From the sequence record PP658200.1: DNA of 64,000 nucleotides; one strand, given 5' to 3'. Made by a program: the position numbers and the translations under genes. The notes beneath the pieces were generated by a model. It saw only the letters and a list, made by a program, of their open reading frames with translations, made no database searches and had not been told where the DNA came from. Positions 36,633 through 49,382 of this stretch are shown in pieces. Source of the DNA: Escherichia phage HY126. Numbering within the stretch: position 1 is the stretch's first letter; the number at the start of each line of letters is the position of its first letter.

Positions 36633-36821
36633 TTAGTCCTTAGTTAAATTTTCTAAATATGTTTCTAAATCATTTTCAGCTTTATCGATAGATTTTACTA
36701 ATTCGTAGTATGTTTCAGCATCTCCATAATCCGAAGCCAATTCAAAAGATAAATCTCGTTCTAAACTAATAATTTCGCTGATTAAAAATCGTATTTCATT
36801 CTTTTGTTCGCGAGTAATCAT
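36633..36821 (-). CDS. Hypothetical acidic protein
   Basis: ORF track 62 aa. Confidence 0.45.
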   Translation of the reverse strand: MITREQKNEIRFLISEIISLERDLSFELASDYGDAETYYELVKSIDKAENDLETYLENLTKD

Positions 36822-37024
36822 AAGGAATTTATATAATCAATAAGTTCTTGTTCTTTATCGTCGAAATCTTTACACAGTTCTTCGTATTCGTCGGTATTAA
36901 AAGGACCGCATTCATCGCAAACTTTTTCCAATTCACTATTTTTATCCATAACTTCGTGAATAAGAGAAAACAGTCTGTCTTTTTGTTCTTTACTTAAACT
37001 CATAACCATGTAACCTTTAAGCAA
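36818..37024 (-). CDS. Hypothetical protein
   Basis: ORF track 68 aa. Confidence 0.45.
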   Translation of the reverse strand: MLKGYMVMSLSKEQKDRLFSLIHEVMDKNSELEKVCDECGPFNTDEYEELCKDFDDKEQELIDYINSL

Positions 37025-43954: not shown

Positions 43955-44195
43955 CTCGGTCCCATGATTTGGCCATTAATTCGGACATAAATTCTTCAAT
44001 GCGCGTTTCTTTAGATGGACTTTCACTATTAGAGACCGCAAGTTTGTAATCTGCAATAGGACAGAACATATCAAGGTCCATATTAAGGTCGTCTTTGATT
44101 TTTTCTTCTGACACATCTTTATCGTATGTGTACAGATAACTATCACATGATTCTGATTTAATGTAAATTGCTATACTCATCTCAAATTCCTGCAT
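43944..44195 (-). CDS. Hypothetical acidic protein
   Basis: ORF track 83 aa. Confidence 0.45.
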   Translation of the reverse strand: MQEFEMSIAIYIKSESCDSYLYTYDKDVSEEKIKDDLNMDLDMFCPIADYKLAVSNSESPSKETRIEEFMSELMAKSWDRDDE

Positions 44196-44668
44196 TCGGT
44201 AATAAAACGTTCAACTTCATTATTCTTGGCTTTTATCTTGTCTTTATGTTCTTGTAAACTACTTTTAATAAGATTAATAATGATGCCTACAGTACCTCCA
44301 CCAATTATACCGCCAATTATACTTACGATAGTAGATGCTAATAAGATAGCAATAATATCAACAAAACCGAAAGAACTCACCTTAGTACTAAAAAACCACA
44401 CTGATGGTACAAATATAATCCATCCTGTTATCCATTGACACTTATTGAAAAACTTTTCAAGCTCAGCTTGAGTTGTTCGTATTACTTCATCGATAGGTTG
44501 ATAACCATTAATATGTCTGTTCACGATAATACCTGCTGGCTGGTCGATTTTAAATTCTTGGCAAATACGTTTCACTAAGTAGGATGGACATCCTGTCCAA
44601 TCCACTGAATAGTACGAAATACCTTCATTGCCGTCGTCAATATTAGACCAATATGTTTTGTTAATCAT
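44177..44668 (-). CDS. Membrane protein, C-terminal ERFITECR motif family
   Basis: ORF track 163 aa; hydrophobic helices then Lys-rich tail ending NEVERFITECRNLR. Confidence 0.55.
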   Translation of the reverse strand: MINKTYWSNIDDGNEGISYYSVDWTGCPSYLVKRICQEFKIDQPAGIIVNRHINGYQPIDEVIRTTQAELEKFFNKCQWITGWIIFVPSVWFFSTKVSSFGFVDIIAILLASTIVSIIGGIIGGGTVGIIINLIKSSLQEHKDKIKAKNNEVERFITECRNLR

Positions 44669-45381
44669 TACCAGCCTTCCATAGGGAATTCCAGATAAAC
44701 TTGAGCGTTGACACGAATTTCGTTGGTAATCTTTTTAACTCGGTCTGTATTACGAGATACACGTCCGAACCAACGCCATCCATTACTAATTGCACGAGAA
44801 CCAGTGTGCCATGTTTGCCAATCAAACTGAAGAAGAGTACGGTCTGGAGCTTCCCATTTCTCTAGTTCGCCTTTTTCGATTTTTTCGAGGACTTCTTTGT
44901 GCCACTGGCGATAGATAAGTTCGCCATCAGGAATCTGACTGAACTCTGCAGTTCCTGTTGCAAAATGAGTAGGACACACATCAGCGTTAACAAGACCAAG
45001 AATATGTTCAGAATGGTAACGAGGGTTGTCATAATCAGGTTGTCCTGCAGTAATAAAGTGTTGACCAACCGGAATATCCGGGCGTGGTACATCATCATGG
45101 TGATAACCTGGGATAGCAGGGTACCAACCAGGCATCAGCATGTGGACTCGTGAATCAAATACAACCTGGTCGGTGTTCCAATCATCAGGCAAGTTCATGA
45201 TGAAGCTGCGAGTAATAGGACCACCGTTATTATAAGCAAATTCTAAACTACAGTTGAAGAACATAGGCTCGTTTTTAATCTGGTCATTTTTAATCGCATG
45301 AGCAAAACCACCTACTGCACGAGCTTGACTATTAAACACTTTAGAACTATTCATATTATTTTCCTCGACATTCTTTAACAA
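44668..45381 (-). CDS. Hypothetical protein
   Basis: ORF track 237 aa; Trp/His/Pro-rich, no recognised motif. Confidence 0.55.
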   Translation of the reverse strand: MLKNVEENNMNSSKVFNSQARAVGGFAHAIKNDQIKNEPMFFNCSLEFAYNNGGPITRSFIMNLPDDWNTDQVVFDSRVHMLMPGWYPAIPGYHHDDVPRPDIPVGQHFITAGQPDYDNPRYHSEHILGLVNADVCPTHFATGTAEFSQIPDGELIYRQWHKEVLEKIEKGELEKWEAPDRTLLQFDWQTWHTGSRAISNGWRWFGRVSRNTDRVKKITNEIRVNAQVYLEFPMEGW

Positions 45382-45661
45382 AATTTTCTAAATCTGTTGA
45401 TTCAATAGCTTTTTTACGAGCTTCAGCGTGTTCTTCTTCAGTTAATCTACGTTTAAACTTGACCCAAACATTATGGTCGAAACCTGTTGTCGCGTATAAT
45501 AACAGAGCACCAACGAATAACAAAAACGGTGATAAAAATACACAACCAGGAACACCGTCCATGCCATAGGCCTTTTGTAATACTGCAACAGAAAGCACAG
45601 CATAAAAAGGTGATGTAAGTATCGTTAAAAGGCCAATTCGGTTGGTTTCGGATAATTTCAT
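45356..45661 (-). CDS. Membrane protein, C-terminal ENFVKECR motif family
   Basis: Track ORF trimmed to ATG 45661 (GGAG SD; MKLSETNRIG...); two TM helices; ends ENFVKECRGK. Confidence 0.55.
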   Translation of the reverse strand: MKLSETNRIGLLTILTSPFYAVLSVAVLQKAYGMDGVPGCVFLSPFLLFVGALLLYATTGFDHNVWVKFKRRLTEEEHAEARKKAIESTDLENFVKECRGK

Positions 45662-45680
45662 AATATTCTCCTCATGTTTA

Positions 45681-45718
45681 ATAGGACTACTATAACATAG
45701 TCCTATCAGTTTGTACAC
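45681..45718 (-). promoter_or_regulatory. Promoter/stem-loop cassette
   Basis: Minus sense GTGTACA...TGTTATAGTAGTCCTAT with inverted repeat ATAGGACTA/TAGTCCTAT. Confidence 0.5.
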
Positions 45719-45999: not shown

Positions 46000-46956
46000 T
46001 TATTTGAAAGGTTTTACCATATGGAAATTTTGTTTGAAACGTTTGACGTAATCGTCATGTCCTAAGCTTTGGTACATACTTACTACTTTGCTGTAGTTTT
46101 CCCAGGCATACTCACGGAACCAACCAGAGGTGATGCTTGTACAGACTTTTTCCAATGCCATCATGAAACTGACTTCAGGATTAATTTTAAAGTCATTAGG
46201 AATTTGAGAACGTTCTAATGCTAGTACACATGATTCTTCGTATACACCGGCCAATTTGACCATTTCTGGTAATGATTCAAACTTCTCGCGTGAGGTCATG
46301 ACTTCAGAACCATCTTTCATATAAAATGTATACGCTGGACGGTCTGTTAGTGCAATGGCTTCATGAATAGTATCATGGTCATACGTATAGATGTCATCTT
46401 TAAAGAACGCACTTTTAGAAGTGTCAAGAACTGGGTGAGCATAGTTCAAGGTTTCTTTCTGGCGTTTCAGCATAATTTCAGTAAGTTCATCGTTCAGTGT
46501 AACACCTTTACCACGAAGATACTGAATATGGTTCATAGTCTTTAAAAAGAATGGATTATTTTTCTTGAAACGATGAGACATCTTAATTGCAAGACATAAC
46601 TCAGGAGTTGCCCAATAAAACCCGTTCAAACGGTCTTTAGACAAATTTTTCTTGGCGTATTTTAAAAGGTCATAAGAAGACGTGAAATCTTCAGGAGTGA
46701 GTTCACCGACTAATTCACGGACATTAGTGATTGCCGGAACAATATATGCTTCAAAATGAGTTTCGCGTCCATTATGGAAGCATTTGAAAACTTGGACATC
46801 AGGGTTATCTTGTTGAACATATACACCCATCATTTGATTTTTGAATGCATTCCAAGAACCTTGGTCTGCAATAAAGTCCCAGTCACTATTTTTGATAGCG
46901 TTAGAATCAATAAGACCATGATAGTGAAGTGCACGAGAACCAATAACTAACATCAT
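46000..46956 (-). CDS. Hypothetical 318-aa protein
   Basis: ORF track; N-terminal IGSRALHYHG...SDWDF is only loosely nucleotidyltransferase-like (spacing atypical). Confidence 0.6.
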   Translation of the reverse strand: MMLVIGSRALHYHGLIDSNAIKNSDWDFIADQGSWNAFKNQMMGVYVQQDNPDVQVFKCFHNGRETHFEAYIVPAITNVRELVGELTPEDFTSSYDLLKYAKKNLSKDRLNGFYWATPELCLAIKMSHRFKKNNPFFLKTMNHIQYLRGKGVTLNDELTEIMLKRQKETLNYAHPVLDTSKSAFFKDDIYTYDHDTIHEAIALTDRPAYTFYMKDGSEVMTSREKFESLPEMVKLAGVYEESCVLALERSQIPNDFKINPEVSFMMALEKVCTSITSGWFREYAWENYSKVVSMYQSLGHDDYVKRFKQNFHMVKPFK

Positions 46957-46984: not shown

Positions 46985-47224
46985 TTAAATTTCACGACAT
47001 GCGATATCATATTCATCCCAGAGGTCATCGTGTGAAGCCTCTACCAATGGAACGATTGTACCATTTATGTCTTCATTATAAGGGCAAATTGTACAGTGTG
47101 CGTCTTCGAATCGGATACCTTTGTGTTCAGATTTTTTATAACGCATATCGAATATCTTTGCAAATTTTTCACGAGTAATGGTTTTACCAACCACTTTGGT
47201 TCCGATACTTTCGTAATAAATCAT
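46985..47224 (-). CDS. Hypothetical protein
   Basis: Track ORF trimmed to ATG 47224 with GGAG SD; CTICPY...IACREI. Confidence 0.45.
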   Translation of the reverse strand: MIYYESIGTKVVGKTITREKFAKIFDMRYKKSEHKGIRFEDAHCTICPYNEDINGTIVPLVEASHDDLWDEYDIACREI

Positions 47225-47243
47225 TGTGGACTCCATTTAATTT

Positions 47244-47282
47244 GATAGGACTACTATAACATAGCCCTATCTTGTTGTAAAC
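47244..47282 (-). promoter_or_regulatory. Promoter/stem-loop cassette
   Basis: Minus sense GTTTACA...TGTTATAGTAGTCCTATC. Confidence 0.5.
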
Positions 47283-47286
47283 TGTT

Positions 47287-47484
47287 TTAGCAAGAATAAC
47301 TAGACGATACCCAGCCTTGAACAGTGATACTATTGTGGGATAATGAGATCGCGTCCTGGAGATTCAGACCTGCGTTATCTTCAATCCATAACGTAACTTC
47401 TTCGCGTTCTTCTGTTGCAATTTGGAACAGGTTTTCCAGAGCAGCTACTGCCGTACGTACAGCACAATCTAATTCACGAGACAT
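47287..47484 (-). CDS. Small acidic protein, member 1 of C-terminal W-x-SS-x-x-C triad
   Basis: ORF track 65 aa; ends QGWVSSSYSC. Confidence 0.5.
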   Translation of the reverse strand: MSRELDCAVRTAVAALENLFQIATEEREEVTLWIEDNAGLNLQDAISLSHNSITVQGWVSSSYSC

Positions 47485-47493
47485 ATGGTTTCC

Positions 47494-47766
47494 TTAGCAA
47501 GTGTGAGAAGATGCGATCCAACCACCAGTTTCGAGGCTTAGGTTGTAGTCGTATTGGTAAACGTCGGCCCATTCAGCATAGCCGTTTTTTGTACAACGTT
47601 CAAGGTCGGCTTTAAGCTGTCCGGGTGAATGATATGTTCCACCCATACCATAAGCTGGATACAAGTCGAATGTTGTGTTTTGTTTATCAGCAATTTCTTT
47701 GGCAGCCTCAATAGCTGCATAGATTTTTGCTACAGCTTCAGCCAGTTCGGTTTGTTCTTTAGACAT
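47494..47766 (-). CDS. Small acidic protein, member 2 of triad
   Basis: ORF track 90 aa; ends TGGWIASSHTC. Confidence 0.5.
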   Translation of the reverse strand: MSKEQTELAEAVAKIYAAIEAAKEIADKQNTTFDLYPAYGMGGTYHSPGQLKADLERCTKNGYAEWADVYQYDYNLSLETGGWIASSHTC

Positions 47767-47775
47767 AGTGATTCC

Positions 47776-48081
47776 TTAGCACAACGCAGAAGACGAAACC
47801 CAAGCACCTTCAGTAATAACGTAACCATTACCTTCACGCTTAACATCGCCACCATTATTTTCAATTTCATTTTTCATCCACTGGGATACGATTTCACCCT
47901 TAGGATAATAAGTACGACCGCTACCATAATCACCTACAGAAAATGATACGGCATATTGGTCTGCGATCTTTGTTGCTTCTTCTTCGATACGTTCAGCTTG
48001 ATTCAGAAGTTTATAAATTGCATCTGAAGCGGATTTGGCATCATTAAACTCTGGTACTTTAATTTCAATAATCTTACTCAT
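47776..48081 (-). CDS. Small acidic protein, member 3 of triad
   Basis: ORF track 101 aa; ends EGAWVSSSALC. Confidence 0.5.
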   Translation of the reverse strand: MSKIIEIKVPEFNDAKSASDAIYKLLNQAERIEEEATKIADQYAVSFSVGDYGSGRTYYPKGEIVSQWMKNEIENNGGDVKREGNGYVITEGAWVSSSALC

Positions 48082-48437
48082 TTTCTACATTCCTTAATAA
48101 AGTTTTCGATTGTTTCATTTTCACGTCTAGCTAGGAGTTCATTATAACTAATCATTTGAGAAGCGTAAACCTTTTTATTTTTCTTGTTGTGGTTTATAAA
48201 ATCGTAGTAAAAATAGACTACAGTACAAAATGATGCGATGGATGCAAAGGCTTGGGTATACCGTAAGTCCTGCCATTGGTCTGTGAATCCACCAGTGTTC
48301 CCTATAAATCCTAACACAACGCCGTCAATAAGAAATCCAACTAATCCAAAGGCAAATCCCATGCCAATACTCATAATAAAAATTAGAATGTTCTCACCAA
48401 GAGAAGGCCATACGGTTAAGAGTTGAGGCTTTTGCAT
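48078..48437 (-). CDS. Membrane protein, C-terminal ENFIKECR motif family
   Basis: ORF track 119 aa; two TM helices; ends ENETIENFIKECRK. Confidence 0.55.
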   Translation of the reverse strand: MQKPQLLTVWPSLGENILIFIMSIGMGFAFGLVGFLIDGVVLGFIGNTGGFTDQWQDLRYTQAFASIASFCTVVYFYYDFINHNKKNKKVYASQMISYNELLARRENETIENFIKECRK

Positions 48438-48811
48438 CTTATTTCCTTAACGAATTCCATAGCTTCTTCATATTCATACTTTTTAACAGCTTCATCATAC
48501 TGAGCTTGGGCTTTTGCGCACTGAACTTTCCATTCTCTTAATCGGGCTCTGTGATGACGGCCTTGGTGCCAATATCCTACCCAATTAATAGGCATTAATA
48601 AAAACGGTACAATAAGTGGTGCGACGAACATTAATGAAAATGCTGCATCAGACGATATAACTTCACTAGAATCTAAAACAGCTCCTATAATCATAAAGAT
48701 TAAAAATGCTAAAGCCAAAATAGGGCCAAATAGTACTTCGTTTGGGATTAATTTACGTTTGTATTCGTATGCCCAGGGCTTAATTGGCATGTACAGGGTT
48801 GGCTTTGACAT
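48416..48811 (-). CDS. Membrane protein, C-terminal MEFVKEIRCK motif family
   Basis: Track ORF (TTG start 48841) trimmed to first ATG 48811; start uncertain. Confidence 0.5.
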   Translation of the reverse strand: MSKPTLYMPIKPWAYEYKRKLIPNEVLFGPILALAFLIFMIIGAVLDSSEVISSDAAFSLMFVAPLIVPFLLMPINWVGYWHQGRHHRARLREWKVQCAKAQAQYDEAVKKYEYEEAMEFVKEIRCKSLNS

Positions 48812-49382
48812 ATTCTCTACATTCCATAATAAATTGCTCAAGGATTAAATTGTTAGTGAAATTAGGACTAACAACCATAGTTTCATAAAGCGCATCAATA
48901 GCACTTAAAGCATCAACTCTTTTAAGCAAAAGCTTGCCTTCATACATAGTTTCAGAATCGACGATTAACGTAAAGTAATATTTTTTATTATCGACTAGAA
49001 CTTCTGTATCGATATAAAACATATTAGACCTCAGAAGCTTATCTCTAAAACCATAATAATCTTCTGAATGTTCACTGATATATTCCCATTCAGTGTTTAA
49101 ACAACAAACAGACCACGTAGGAGCGACGAAATCAGTGAATCTAATATCATGGTCTGCAACTAGTTTAGCAATAGCTCCGATATCATGAATCATAATACCT
49201 GGGGCTAATAAAGATTTTCTGCTATGGCTAGCCGTTTTCTCGGTGGTCTCATAAGAAGCTGACCAGTACCATTTACGTCCGGTTGCAACATATCGTAATG
49301 AATCAACTAAAGACGTAGGTGGATTTACCTTATCTCGGAACTCTTCGAACATTGAGTCAATATCATTATTTTGGTTTCGCAT
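48780..49382 (-). CDS. Hypothetical protein with LEQFIMECRE motif near C-terminus
   Basis: Track ORF trimmed to ATG 49382 (MRNQNNDIDSMFEEF...). Confidence 0.5.
   Translation of the reverse strand: MRNQNNDIDSMFEEFRDKVNPPTSLVDSLRYVATGRKWYWSASYETTEKTASHSRKSLLAPGIMIHDIGAIAKLVADHDIRFTDFVAPTWSVCCLNTEWEYISEHSEDYYGFRDKLLRSNMFYIDTEVLVDNKKYYFTLIVDSETMYEGKLLLKRVDALSAIDALYETMVVSPNFTNNLILEQFIMECREYVKANPVHAN

What the first reader, a model, noticed from the sequence alone, without database searches (positions are those of the whole stretch)
47287..48081. Tandem triad of small acidic proteins ending in G-x-W-[VI]-[SA]-SS-x-x-Cys
Three consecutive ORFs (65, 90, 101 aa) all start MS(R/K)E/I and all terminate ...GWVSSSYSC, ...GGWIASSHTC, ...GAWVSSSALC with Cys as the last residue. 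N-terminal parts diverge. A strictly C-terminal Cys preceded by a Trp-Ser-rich patch could be a modification or metal-binding site, or a recognition tag. The triad sits directly upstream of the C-terminal-motif membrane protein cluster.
Basis: seen in the sequence. Interest (0 to 1): 0.55.

Follow-up and report, generated by a model that had tools for sequence, protein, structure and literature searches.

The report
Cysteine-tailed phage proteins with partner enzyme
Three neighbouring small acidic phage genes belong to a large, uncharacterised, virus-only protein family that ends in a fixed Trp-Ser-Ser-Cys tail and almost always sits just upstream of one conserved enzyme-like gene, which points to an undescribed two-part phage system.

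Summary
Three minus-strand ORFs of 65, 90 and 101 aa (RB69 ORF136c, 137c and 138c/139c equivalents in a Mosigvirus) all end in W-[VI]-[SA]-S-S-x-x-Cys. They are paralogs.

The 90- and 101-aa proteins belong to a family with 569 representatives at 50% identity. In that family Trp, two Ser and the Cys are 96-99% conserved, and the Cys is the last residue in 129 of 138 representatives. No Pfam family, solved fold or paper covers it.

The main new result is linkage. Arrays of 1-6 such genes lie just upstream, on the same strand, of a 318-aa DUF7277-DUF7275 protein (window 46000-46956). This held in 32/33 loci found with the small proteins and 72/80 found with the enzyme, across several unrelated phage lineages. 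No third gene is conserved. T4 lacks both.

The enzyme has an invariant GS...DxD...E signature, and its predicted strand/helix order fits a Pol-beta-type nucleotidyltransferase. That assignment is inferred: profile searches did not support it and no fold search was run.

My best reading is that the tail is the handle this enzyme docks on or modifies. The chemistry is unknown. A structural or metal-binding role, or an antitoxin-like role, is not excluded.

The parts
47776..48081 (-). 101-aa paralog, a full-length family member (equivalent to RB69 ORF138c+139c, which are frameshift-split in the RB69 record). It has a long N-terminal helix ending ...KIADQY, the hairpin FSVGDYGSGRTYYP, a variable loop, and the tail GAWVSSSALC.
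   Evidence: phrog_899; AF2 pLDDT 92
47494..47766 (-). 90-aa paralog (RB69 ORF137c equivalent) of the 'PAYGMGGTYH' hairpin subtype, with tail GGWIASSHTC.
47287..47484 (-). 65-aa minimal paralog (RB69 ORF136c equivalent, phrog_4882). It keeps the N-terminal helix and the last strands plus the tail QGWVSSSYSC, but lacks the YG hairpin. Orthologs in other genera share QI[AC].EERE and the tail.
47779..47802 (-). Tail codons W-V-S-S-S-A-L-C of the 101-aa gene.
   Evidence: family conservation
47497..47520 (-). Tail codons W-I-A-S-S-H-T-C of the 90-aa gene.
47290..47313 (-). Tail codons W-V-S-S-S-Y-S-C of the 65-aa gene.
46000..46956 (-). 318-aa DUF7277 (N-terminal) plus DUF7275 (C-terminal) protein (RB69 ORF134c), the conserved partner gene downstream of the array. 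Invariant G6-S7, D25-x-D27, E69 and many invariant residues in the all-alpha C-domain, including KVCTSITSGWFRE. The nucleotidyltransferase-like assignment is inferred.
46985..47236 (-). 83-aa ORF (RB69 ORF135c) lying between the array and the enzyme gene. It was found in only 11 of the 33 loci compared, so it is not a conserved part of the module.
47253..47281 (-). Promoter-like site (TTTACA-17-TATAGT) just after the 65-aa gene and ahead of ORF135c and the enzyme gene. A closely related phage record annotates a terminator at the corresponding place. This is a consensus match only.
48141..48169 (-). Promoter-like site (TTTACG-17-TATAAT) inside e.3, upstream of the triad. A related record annotates a T4 middle-promoter-like site in e.3. 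This is a consensus match only.
48078..48437 (-). e.3 homolog (membrane protein ending FIKECRK). Its stop overlaps the ATG of the 101-aa gene (ATGA). It is a neighbour by synteny and not part of the module.

Best explanation
The three ORFs are tandem paralogs of a large, phage-restricted family of small acidic alpha/beta proteins.

Shown:
- The conserved core is a long helix ending A-x-x-I-A-D, a Y-G-x-G-x-T-Y hairpin, and a last strand plus turn W-x-[SAP]-S-S-(x0-2)-C at or near the C-terminus.
- The N-terminus and the acidic, aromatic loop of 6-55 residues diversify freely.
- Arrays of 1-6 such genes form a two-component module with one downstream gene, which encodes a DUF7277-DUF7275 protein.

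Inferred:
- The enzyme has a Pol-beta-type nucleotidyltransferase N-domain, based on the invariant GS...DxD...E signature and the predicted strand/helix order, followed by a highly conserved all-alpha domain.
- The invariant tail is the shared element through which this one enzyme docks on each paralog, and most likely modifies it covalently on the Ser hydroxyl or Cys thiol (for example by nucleotidylylation).
- The variable bodies give each paralog a different host target.
- Placement among early/middle-type T4-like accessory genes suggests a host-takeover or counter-defence role.
For: Family and motif:
- 569 representatives at E<=1e-3; in nearly all, the profile end coincides with the protein end.
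- Cys is last in 129/138. Column conservation is W 99%, S 99%/96%, C 97%, Y-G-x-G 96-98%, A 97%.
- Both Ser codon families are used at the invariant Ser positions.
- The AF2 model is confident (pLDDT 92) and places W in the last beta-strand, followed by a short helical turn.

Linkage:
- 32/33 loci found with the small protein carry the 318-aa gene within 5 kb. These include Otagovirus, Phapecoctavirus, a jumbo-sized (371-kb) contig and metagenomic contigs.
- 72/80 loci found with the enzyme carry tail-motif or HMM-positive ORFs. Two of the eight 'negative' loci carry variant tails, and one has no upstream DNA.
- The strict tail occurs 171 times in 2341 upstream same-strand segments, 0 times in 2563 downstream and 0 times in 6607 opposite-strand segments.
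- Myxococcus phage Mx1 and Acinetobacter phage KARL-1 show the same order.
- In 62 diverse loci the enzyme is present in 62 and the small family in 52, with a separate cluster holding the two-motif subfamily in 14. The next gene family is present in only 15.
- T4 lacks both genes across its whole genome.
- Both are essentially virus-only: 6 hits among GTDB species genomes, all on MAG contigs.

Enzyme:
- Invariant G6 S7, D25 x D27 and E69, plus about 50 invariant residues in the C-domain.
- AF2 pLDDT 87 with b1-GS-a-b2(DWD)-a-b-b-b(E69), then an all-alpha domain.
Against: - No modification, binding or activity has been observed. The link is synteny only.
- The nucleotidyltransferase assignment is not backed by any profile hit. 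Pfam returns only the two DUFs plus one lone E=0.25 hit to DUF6036. PDB profile searches find nothing. hhalign against T4 NrdC.11 (RlaP) is null. No fold search could be run on the enzyme model.
- In the window, a promoter-like site and an unrelated ORF separate the array from the enzyme gene.
- One lineage (L080/81/83/102) and L062 have the enzyme without a detectable array.
- Short 250-aa enzyme variants in KVP40 and actinophages sit beside a different small acidic protein.
- The tail is predicted to be part of the fold rather than a free peptide.
Confidence: 0.45

Rival explanations
1. The tail is an intrinsic structural, metal-binding or redox element that the neighbouring enzyme does not act on. 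The proteins would be stand-alone acidic inhibitors or mimics of host factors. The Cys would bridge a metal or form a disulfide in homo- or hetero-oligomers of the paralogs. Synteny with the enzyme would reflect a shared pathway or shared regulation only.
For: - The Trp lies in the last beta-strand of a confident model, so part of the motif is probably core packing.
- The proteins are strongly acidic with acidic/aromatic variable loops. Median net charge is -8.
- The two-motif subfamily places two W..SSC units in one small chain, which would suit a Cys-Cys or metal site.
- Coiled-coil-like weak hits to the long helix hint at oligomers.
Against: - 83/138 members have a single Cys, and there is no conserved His or second ligand.
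- A purely structural role does not explain near-invariance of Ser-Ser-Cys across roughly 25% identity.
- It also does not explain the strict upstream, same-strand association with one enzyme in unrelated phage lineages.
Confidence: 0.28
2. The small proteins are antitoxin-like regulators of a toxic nucleotidyltransferase-like host-shutoff enzyme. They are small, acidic and encoded upstream, as in AbiEi/AbiEii, MenA/MenT or MNT-HEPN pairs. The tail would plug or be consumed by the active site.
For: - The gene order of small acidic ORFs followed by the enzyme on one strand is the canonical antitoxin-toxin order.
- The bilobed layout, with an NTase-like N-lobe and a helical C-lobe, resembles the AbiEii/MenT architecture. 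That comparison rests on my own knowledge.
Against: - Up to six divergent paralogs per single enzyme is atypical for an antitoxin.
- Individual paralogs are lost by frameshift in otherwise intact phages: RB69 ORF138c/139c and P0046.
- Intervening genes and a promoter-like site separate the array from the enzyme gene in the window.
- PADLOC models gave no meaningful hit: one lone weak hit in one of 18 members to an unnamed candidate model.
- No DNA-binding domain is present.
Confidence: 0.15
3. This is a RiPP-like maturation. A Ser of the tail is activated and eliminated to dehydroalanine, and the terminal Cys adds to it to give a C-terminal thioether (lanthionine- or AviCys-type) ring.
For: - The triad tails fit S(-4)-x-x-C(-1), the spacing of AviCys/lanthionine rings (own knowledge of epidermin-type peptides; sequences).
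- Several 'precursors' with one enzyme resembles precursor arrays.
- An aminoglycoside-nucleotidyltransferase-like enzyme would parallel the APH-like kinases of class V lanthipeptide and thioamitide pathways (own knowledge).
Against: - The Ser-to-Cys spacing is not fixed: W..SSC, W.SSS..C, WISSSICW and WFPS...C all occur.
- An internal copy of the motif exists, so a free C-terminal Cys is not required.
- No decarboxylase, cyclase or any third conserved gene is present.
- The substrates are folded 65-175-aa proteins, not leader-core peptides.
Confidence: 0.07
4. The ORFs are chance or non-coding ORFs, or the motif is a by-product of a conserved DNA or RNA signal at the gene junctions.
For: The stop codon and Shine-Dalgarno sequence overlap the end of two of the genes (TGC-TAA-GGA).
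Against: - Hundreds of homologs keep the motif with synonymous codon turnover, including TCN/AGY Ser switches.
- The AF2 fold is confident.
- The motif is present in phages whose downstream sequence is different.
Confidence: 0.01

Closest known systems
GlnD-PII and GlnE-glutamine synthetase (Pol-beta-fold nucleotidyltransferases that nucleotidylylate a hydroxyl side chain of a protein); also the DrrA/SidM type
   Same: An enzyme bearing a GS...DxD...acidic signature is paired with small protein partners that display an invariant hydroxyl-rich loop or tail. This is the model for 'tail = nucleotidylylation site'.
   Different: - No sequence or profile similarity was detected.
- The partners here are a diversifying multi-paralog family, not one trimeric regulator.
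- The candidate acceptor would be Ser or Cys next to a Trp, not Tyr.
- The system is virus-only.
- The modification has not been shown.
MNT-HEPN (MntA-HepT) and AbiEi/AbiEii, MenA/MenT nucleotidyltransferase toxin-antitoxin pairs
   Same: A two-gene cassette with a minimal NTase-type signature, in which small acidic ORFs precede the larger enzyme.
   Different: - No hit to the PADLOC or Pfam models of these families.
- There are 1-6 upstream paralogs rather than one.
- No HEPN Rx4-6H motif is conserved: it is present in the window protein but lost in distant members.
- The cassette sits in lytic phage genomes, not bacterial ones.
DsrC/TusE and other 'C-terminal cysteine arm' carriers; ThiS/MoaD C-terminal carriers
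   Same: A small protein whose function would be concentrated in a conserved Cys at the extreme C-terminus and served by a dedicated enzyme.
   Different: - No P-T-G-C-V or Gly-Gly terminus.
- The partner is not an E1-like, rhodanese or DsrMK-type protein.
- An internal motif copy exists.
RiPP precursor arrays with one modifying enzyme (e.g. prochlorosins); AviCys/lanthionine S-x-x-C termini
   Same: Many diversified 'substrates' share one short invariant motif next to a single enzyme gene, and the motif contains Ser and Cys.
   Different: - The proteins are folded, not leader-core peptides.
- The conserved part is the modified end and the variable part is the body.
- The Ser-Cys spacing is variable.
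- No cyclase or decarboxylase is present.
Small acidic phage inhibitor or mimic proteins of T-even accessory regions (Arn, Ocr-type, internal proteins)
   Same: Small, acidic, early-region, dispensable and rapidly diversifying paralogs in a hyperplastic region near e, the tRNA genes and the ip genes.
   Different: - No structural similarity to any of them.
- No capsid-targeting sequence.
- They are defined by an invariant tail and a partner enzyme, which those proteins lack.

Membership tests
Pol-beta-type nucleotidyltransferase superfamily (for the 318-aa partner) | hG[GS] motif directly after strand 1, followed by a helix | tested here: met
   'LVIGSRAL': G6 and S7 are invariant in 15 and 18 diverse sequences. 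AF2 gives E2-5 then H7-12.
Pol-beta-type nucleotidyltransferase superfamily (for the 318-aa partner) | [DE]h[DE]h on strand 2, and a third carboxylate on a neighbouring strand | tested here: met
   D25-W-D27-F-I lies at E26-31, and E69 lies in strand E64-73. All three are invariant.
Pol-beta-type nucleotidyltransferase superfamily (for the 318-aa partner) | Detectable profile or fold similarity to established NTase families | tested here: not met
   - Pfam returns only DUF7277 and DUF7275, plus one lone E=0.25 hit to DUF6036 in one of 15 members.
- PDB profile searches on the full protein and the N-domain find nothing.
- hhalign against T4 NrdC.11/RlaP is null.
Lanthipeptide / AviCys-type RiPP | Fixed Ser/Thr-to-Cys spacing and a free C-terminal Cys (needed for AviCys) | tested here: not met
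   The spacing varies from 0 to 3 residues, and an internal motif copy exists.
Lanthipeptide / AviCys-type RiPP | Co-encoded dehydratase/lyase, cyclase or HFCD decarboxylase | tested here: not met
   No third conserved gene was found in 62 diverse loci.
DsrC/TusE or ThiS/MoaD sulfur carriers | Characteristic fold and terminus (penultimate Cys in a P-T-G-C-V arm, or a C-terminal Gly-Gly) | tested here: not met
   [not shown]
Cys/His metal-binding modules (zinc ribbon, rubredoxin-like) | Three or four conserved Cys/His ligands per chain | tested here: not met
   83/138 members have one Cys, and no conserved His is present. An inter-subunit site is not testable here.
Type II/IV antitoxins of NTase toxins | A single cognate small gene immediately upstream and co-transcribed; neutralises toxicity | tested here: inconclusive
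   The order and strand fit. However, there are 1-6 paralogs, and the window has intervening genes and a promoter-like site. Toxicity cannot be tested with these tools.
T4 internal proteins (IPI-III, Alt) | N-terminal capsid-targeting sequence (about 10 residues ending L/I-x-E, MKTYQEFIAE-like) | tested here: not met
   The N-termini MSKIIEIKVPEF, MSKEQTELAE and MSRELDCAVR share no common CTS, and the N-termini are the most variable part of the family. The CTS consensus is from my own knowledge.
PHROG 899 / PHROG 4882 (phage orthologous groups, function unknown) | Significant match to the group profile | tested here: met
   The 90- and 101-aa proteins match phrog_899 at 1.9e-18 and 1.8e-22. 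The 65-aa protein matches phrog_4882 at 7.7e-37.

The most novel reading that the evidence does not exclude
This would be a phage-specific protein-modification system. One nucleotidyltransferase-like enzyme (DUF7277-DUF7275) would install a covalent group on the W-x-S-S-S-x-x-C tag of a rapidly diversifying set of small acidic effector proteins. The group could be an O-/S-nucleotidyl group, possibly followed by elimination and thioether formation. The enzyme would thereby arm or regulate a whole battery of host-targeting factors. This would be a previously undescribed post-translational modification and enzyme-substrate family, spread across several unrelated lineages of phages with large genomes.
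Probability: 0.25. Interest if true: 0.85.

Novelty: categorically new. Interest (0 to 1): 0.66.

Why it matters
If the link is functional, this defines a widespread two-component system. The enzyme is found in 735 phage records and about 2,400 protein clusters. The small proteins have 569 representative clusters. Nothing is known about the system.

It would assign roles to two Pfam DUFs and two PHROGs. It could reveal a new protein modification or a new short docking tag. It would also explain why arrays of small acidic genes keep expanding in the accessory regions of T4-like, rV5-like, Otagovirus-type and jumbo-sized phages.

The system is directly testable with a handful of co-expression and mass-spectrometry experiments. 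The natural contrast between T4 (lacks both genes) and RB69-like phages (have both) provides a ready genetic system.

Tried and rejected

2. T4 counterpart. T4 e.2, which sits at the syntenic place, is unrelated. A six-frame HMM and motif scan of the entire T4 genome found no member and no enzyme homolog. Only a weak hairpin-only similarity to tk.1 appeared.

3. tRNA or RNA-repair linkage. This was suggested by the nearby tRNA cluster, and by pnk or RNA ligase near the locus in two phages. Only 6 of 51 diverse loci have a tRNA gene within 5 kb, so it was rejected as a general feature.

4. Link to the e.3/e.4 'F[IV]KECR' membrane proteins. T4 has those genes without this family, and they are not conserved outside T4-like loci.

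5. Lacto-N-biose phosphorylase similarity ('NDYGKGRGVY...AAWSSSNPEC', E=0.1). It was not recovered by the fold searches and was treated as unproven.

6. HEPN Rx4-6H motif in the enzyme C-terminus. It is present in the window protein but not conserved in distant members.

7. NTase confirmation by profiles. The Pfam clan, PADLOC, NCBIfam, PDB searches and hhalign against RlaP were all null.

8. Literature. Gene names, DUF names, motif strings and topic terms returned nothing relevant.

9. The afdb50 fold library was unavailable.

Full report
**What is in the window.**
The window is a Mosigvirus (RB69-like T4 relative); the stretch around the finding is 98-99% identical to phages S143_2, HX01 and many others. 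On the minus strand there are three consecutive ORFs:
- 47776-48081: 101 aa
- 47494-47766: 90 aa
- 47287-47484: 65 aa

They start MSK/MSK/MSR and end GAWVSSSALC, GGWIASSHTC and QGWVSSSYSC, with Cys as the last codon before TAA. They correspond to RB69 ORF138c+139c (frameshift-split in the RB69 record), ORF137c and ORF136c. They are acidic, with pI 4.2-4.7.

The two inter-gene junctions repeat the unit TGC-TAA-GGAA(A/T)C..T-ATG-TCT. The first gene overlaps the e.3 stop (ATGA). On the coding strand the triad therefore lies downstream of the e.3/e.4 membrane-protein genes, not upstream. Only these three of 587 long stop-to-stop segments in the window carry the tail.

**They are paralogs of a large family.**
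The 90- and 101-aa proteins align over most of their length (E=4e-6), and both match phrog_899. The 65-aa protein matches only in the tail (E=6e-4 and 7e-3) and belongs to phrog_4882.

An exhaustive profile search found 569 representatives at 50% identity with E<=1e-3. These are mostly proteins of 70-120 aa in which the profile end coincides with the protein end. Of 138 new representatives:
- 129 end in Cys.
- 6 have Cys plus one extra residue.
- Median net charge is -8.
- 83 have only this one Cys.

Across 187 aligned members the conserved columns are:
- A (97%) and D (83%) at the end of the long helix
- F (84%)
- Y-G-x-G (96-98%) and Y (93%) in the hairpin
- W (99%), S (99%), S (96%) and C (97%) in the tail

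The loop between hairpin and tail varies from 6 to 55 residues and is acidic and aromatic. Both Ser codon families and both Cys codons are used at the invariant positions in 149 distinct tails, so selection acts on the protein.

**Fold.**
AlphaFold2 with a 25-sequence alignment gives a confident model (pLDDT 92). It has a long helix at residues 15-43, a hairpin at 47-59, a short helix and three strands. W94 lies in the last strand, and residues 97-100 form a helical turn. The Trp is therefore probably part of the core, and the Ser-Ser-x-x-Cys end is a structured terminal turn rather than a floppy peptide.

**The key finding: a conserved partner gene.**
In 31 IMG/VR loci plus three annotated phages found with the small-protein profile, members occur as tandem arrays of 2-4 paralogs in many lineages. 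All-against-all clustering showed that the 318-aa protein of the window (46000-46956; RB69 ORF134c; Pfam DUF7277 + DUF7275) is present within 5 kb in 32 of 33 loci. It is always downstream on the same strand. These loci include Pseudomonas Otagovirus phiPsa381, Phapecoctavirus tuntematon, a jumbo-sized (371-kb) contig and unclassified contigs at only 38-57% identity.

The reverse test used 80 loci found with the enzyme:
- 72 carry 1-6 ORFs that hit the family HMM or end in the tail motif.
- Of the eight 'negatives', two have variant tails and one has no upstream DNA. That leaves L062 and one lineage (L080/81/83/102) as true negatives.
- The strict tail occurs 171 times among 2341 upstream same-strand segments. 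It occurs 0 times among 2563 downstream segments and 0 times among 6607 opposite-strand segments.

Myxococcus phage Mx1 and Acinetobacter phage KARL-1 show the same arrangement. In 62 diverse loci the enzyme is present in 62 and the small family in 52, with a separate cluster holding the two-motif subfamily in 14. The next gene family is present in only 15. This is a two-component module.

T4 lacks both genes throughout its genome, and its e.2 gene at the syntenic position is unrelated. Among 185,579 species genomes only six MAG contigs carry the enzyme, and five of them have a tail-motif ORF upstream. The system is essentially confined to viruses.

**What the partner looks like.**
The family is large: 2448 clusters at 90% identity and 735 phage records. 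Nearly all are annotated 'hypothetical'. G6-S7, D25-x-D27 and E69 are invariant, as are about 50 residues of the C-terminal domain. These include K125, H128-R129, H174-P175, D193-H194-D195, H198, E240-E241, E248-R249 and the segment KVCTSITSGWFRE, which contains an invariant Cys.

The AF2 model (pLDDT 87) gives strand 2-5, GS, helix 7-12, strand 26-31 (carrying DWD), a helix, then three strands with E69 in the last one. An all-alpha domain covers residues 93-309. This is the signature and strand/helix order of a Pol-beta-type nucleotidyltransferase.

That assignment rests on motif and predicted secondary structure only. Pfam, PADLOC, NCBIfam, PDB profile searches and hhalign against T4 NrdC.11 (RlaP) gave no support.

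**Limits on the chemistry.**
The spacing between the Ser pair and the Cys is not fixed: W..SSC, W.SSS..C, WISSSICW and WFPS...C all occur. One subfamily, present in 25 loci, carries two copies of the motif. One is internal (DW[LMQ][NS]SSC directly before the YG turn) and one is terminal.

The free alpha-carboxylate of a terminal Cys therefore cannot be essential for every member. This weakens ThiS-like C-terminal adenylation and AviCys-type decarboxylation, and it favours side-chain chemistry or a structural or metal role. No third conserved gene (cyclase, decarboxylase or E1-like) is present.

**Interpretation.**
- Shown: a family with an almost invariant tail, tandem amplification, and a strict association with one conserved enzyme-like gene across unrelated phage lineages.
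- Inferred: the tail is the common handle through which the single enzyme recognises each paralog and most likely modifies it covalently. The variable bodies address different host targets. The genes lie among early/middle-type accessory genes, based on promoter-like sites and annotations in related phages. This fits host takeover or counter-defence.
- I put this at about 0.45.

Rivals:
- The tail is a structural, metal-binding or redox element of stand-alone acidic inhibitors (0.28).
- The proteins are antitoxin-like regulators of a toxic enzyme (0.15).
- The system performs RiPP-like thioether ring formation (0.07).
- The ORFs are an artefact (0.01).

Individual paralogs are dispensable. RB69's 101-aa gene and another phage's 90-aa gene are frameshifted.

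**Leads that failed.**
- tRNA proximity holds in only 6 of 51 diverse loci.
- The e.3/e.4 membrane-protein cluster is independent of the family.
- The weak match to lacto-N-biose phosphorylase covers both halves of the motif (E=0.1). The fold searches did not corroborate it.
- No paper in the searchable library mentions these genes, DUFs or motifs.

**Verdict.**
It is one instance of a widespread, virus-restricted and uncharacterised two-gene-type module. Function and chemistry remain unproven.

Noticed in passing
window 48078-48437, 48416-48841, 45356-45718, about 44180-44668 (all minus strand): A family of small membrane proteins (e.2/e.3/e.4-like) ends in a shared cytoplasmic motif: F[IV]KECR(K/GK), FVKEIRCK or FITECRNLR. 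T4 e.3 ends EFVIDCRKIK. Locus L062 has five such ORFs in a row. This family is independent of the Cys-tailed family.
   Followed up: partly
L129 2860-3156 (KVP40.0036); L127 4100-4462 and 4459-4920 (Gordonia phage Yvonnetastic gp17/18); L128 4094-4393 (Streptomyces phage Wakanda gp196): Short (about 250-aa) variants of the DUF7277-DUF7275 protein keep only the first about 30 residues of the N-domain. They sit next to a different small acidic protein family ('RYFK..GWY.S..GG..DG...EV.P.EK.I.VY'), with no Cys tail. The enzyme may always work with a small acidic partner, but the partner family differs.
   Followed up: partly
L044 4096-4326, L005 3692-3949 and 23 other loci: A subfamily has two motif copies in about 75 aa: an internal DW[LMQ][NS]SSC-YGE and a terminal G.[IV]W..SSC. 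It is absent from the window, where the unrelated ORF135c (46985-47236) occupies the place between the array and the enzyme gene.
   Followed up: partly
L132 2235-2541 (RB69 ORF138c/ORF139c): In the RB69 reference record the 101-aa gene is split by a frameshift into 33-aa and 71-aa ORFs. A 75-aa truncated version of the 90-aa gene exists in phage mar005P1 (P0046). Either individual paralogs are dispensable or these are sequencing errors.
   Followed up: partly
PDB 2zus/3wfz residues 647-704 against family profile A3: A weak match (E=0.1) to lacto-N-biose phosphorylase covers both the hairpin and the tail ('NDYGKGRGVY ... AAWSSSNPEC') with similar spacing. This is possibly chance. The fold searches did not recover it.
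   Followed up: no
window 36636-36836 (minus strand; tk.1 homolog) and T4 tk.1: A weak, hairpin-only similarity of Tk.1 to the family profile ('LSFELASDYGDAETYY', E=0.004-0.02). It has no tail motif.
   Followed up: no
L001 6515-6910 (phage F27 e.4 homolog); H104 and P0235 (enzyme homologs): Likely misannotations in public records. The e.4 membrane protein is labelled 'sulfurtransferase'. The DUF7277-DUF7275 protein is labelled 'prohead assembly scaffold protein' in vB_EcoM_005 and vB_KpnM-VAC36. One Acinetobacter phage record calls it 'putative nucleotidyltransferase'.
   Followed up: no
L003 2796-3254 (phiPsa381 gp083) and several IMG/VR loci (tail VDWDSSSMYC): A longer (about 150-aa) member of the tail family is annotated 'chromosome partition protein smc' in phiPsa381. 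Other long members (up to 175 aa) have coiled-coil-like N-terminal extensions.
   Followed up: no
enzyme residues 270-282 (window about 46111-46149, minus strand): The invariant enzyme segment K-V-C-T-S-I-T-S-G-W-F-R-E, read backwards (W-G-S-T-I-S-T-C), resembles the substrate tail W-x-S-S-S-x-x-C in composition and length. AF2 predicts it to be helical, so this is probably coincidence. The invariant Cys272 is still a candidate partner for the tail Cys.
   Followed up: no
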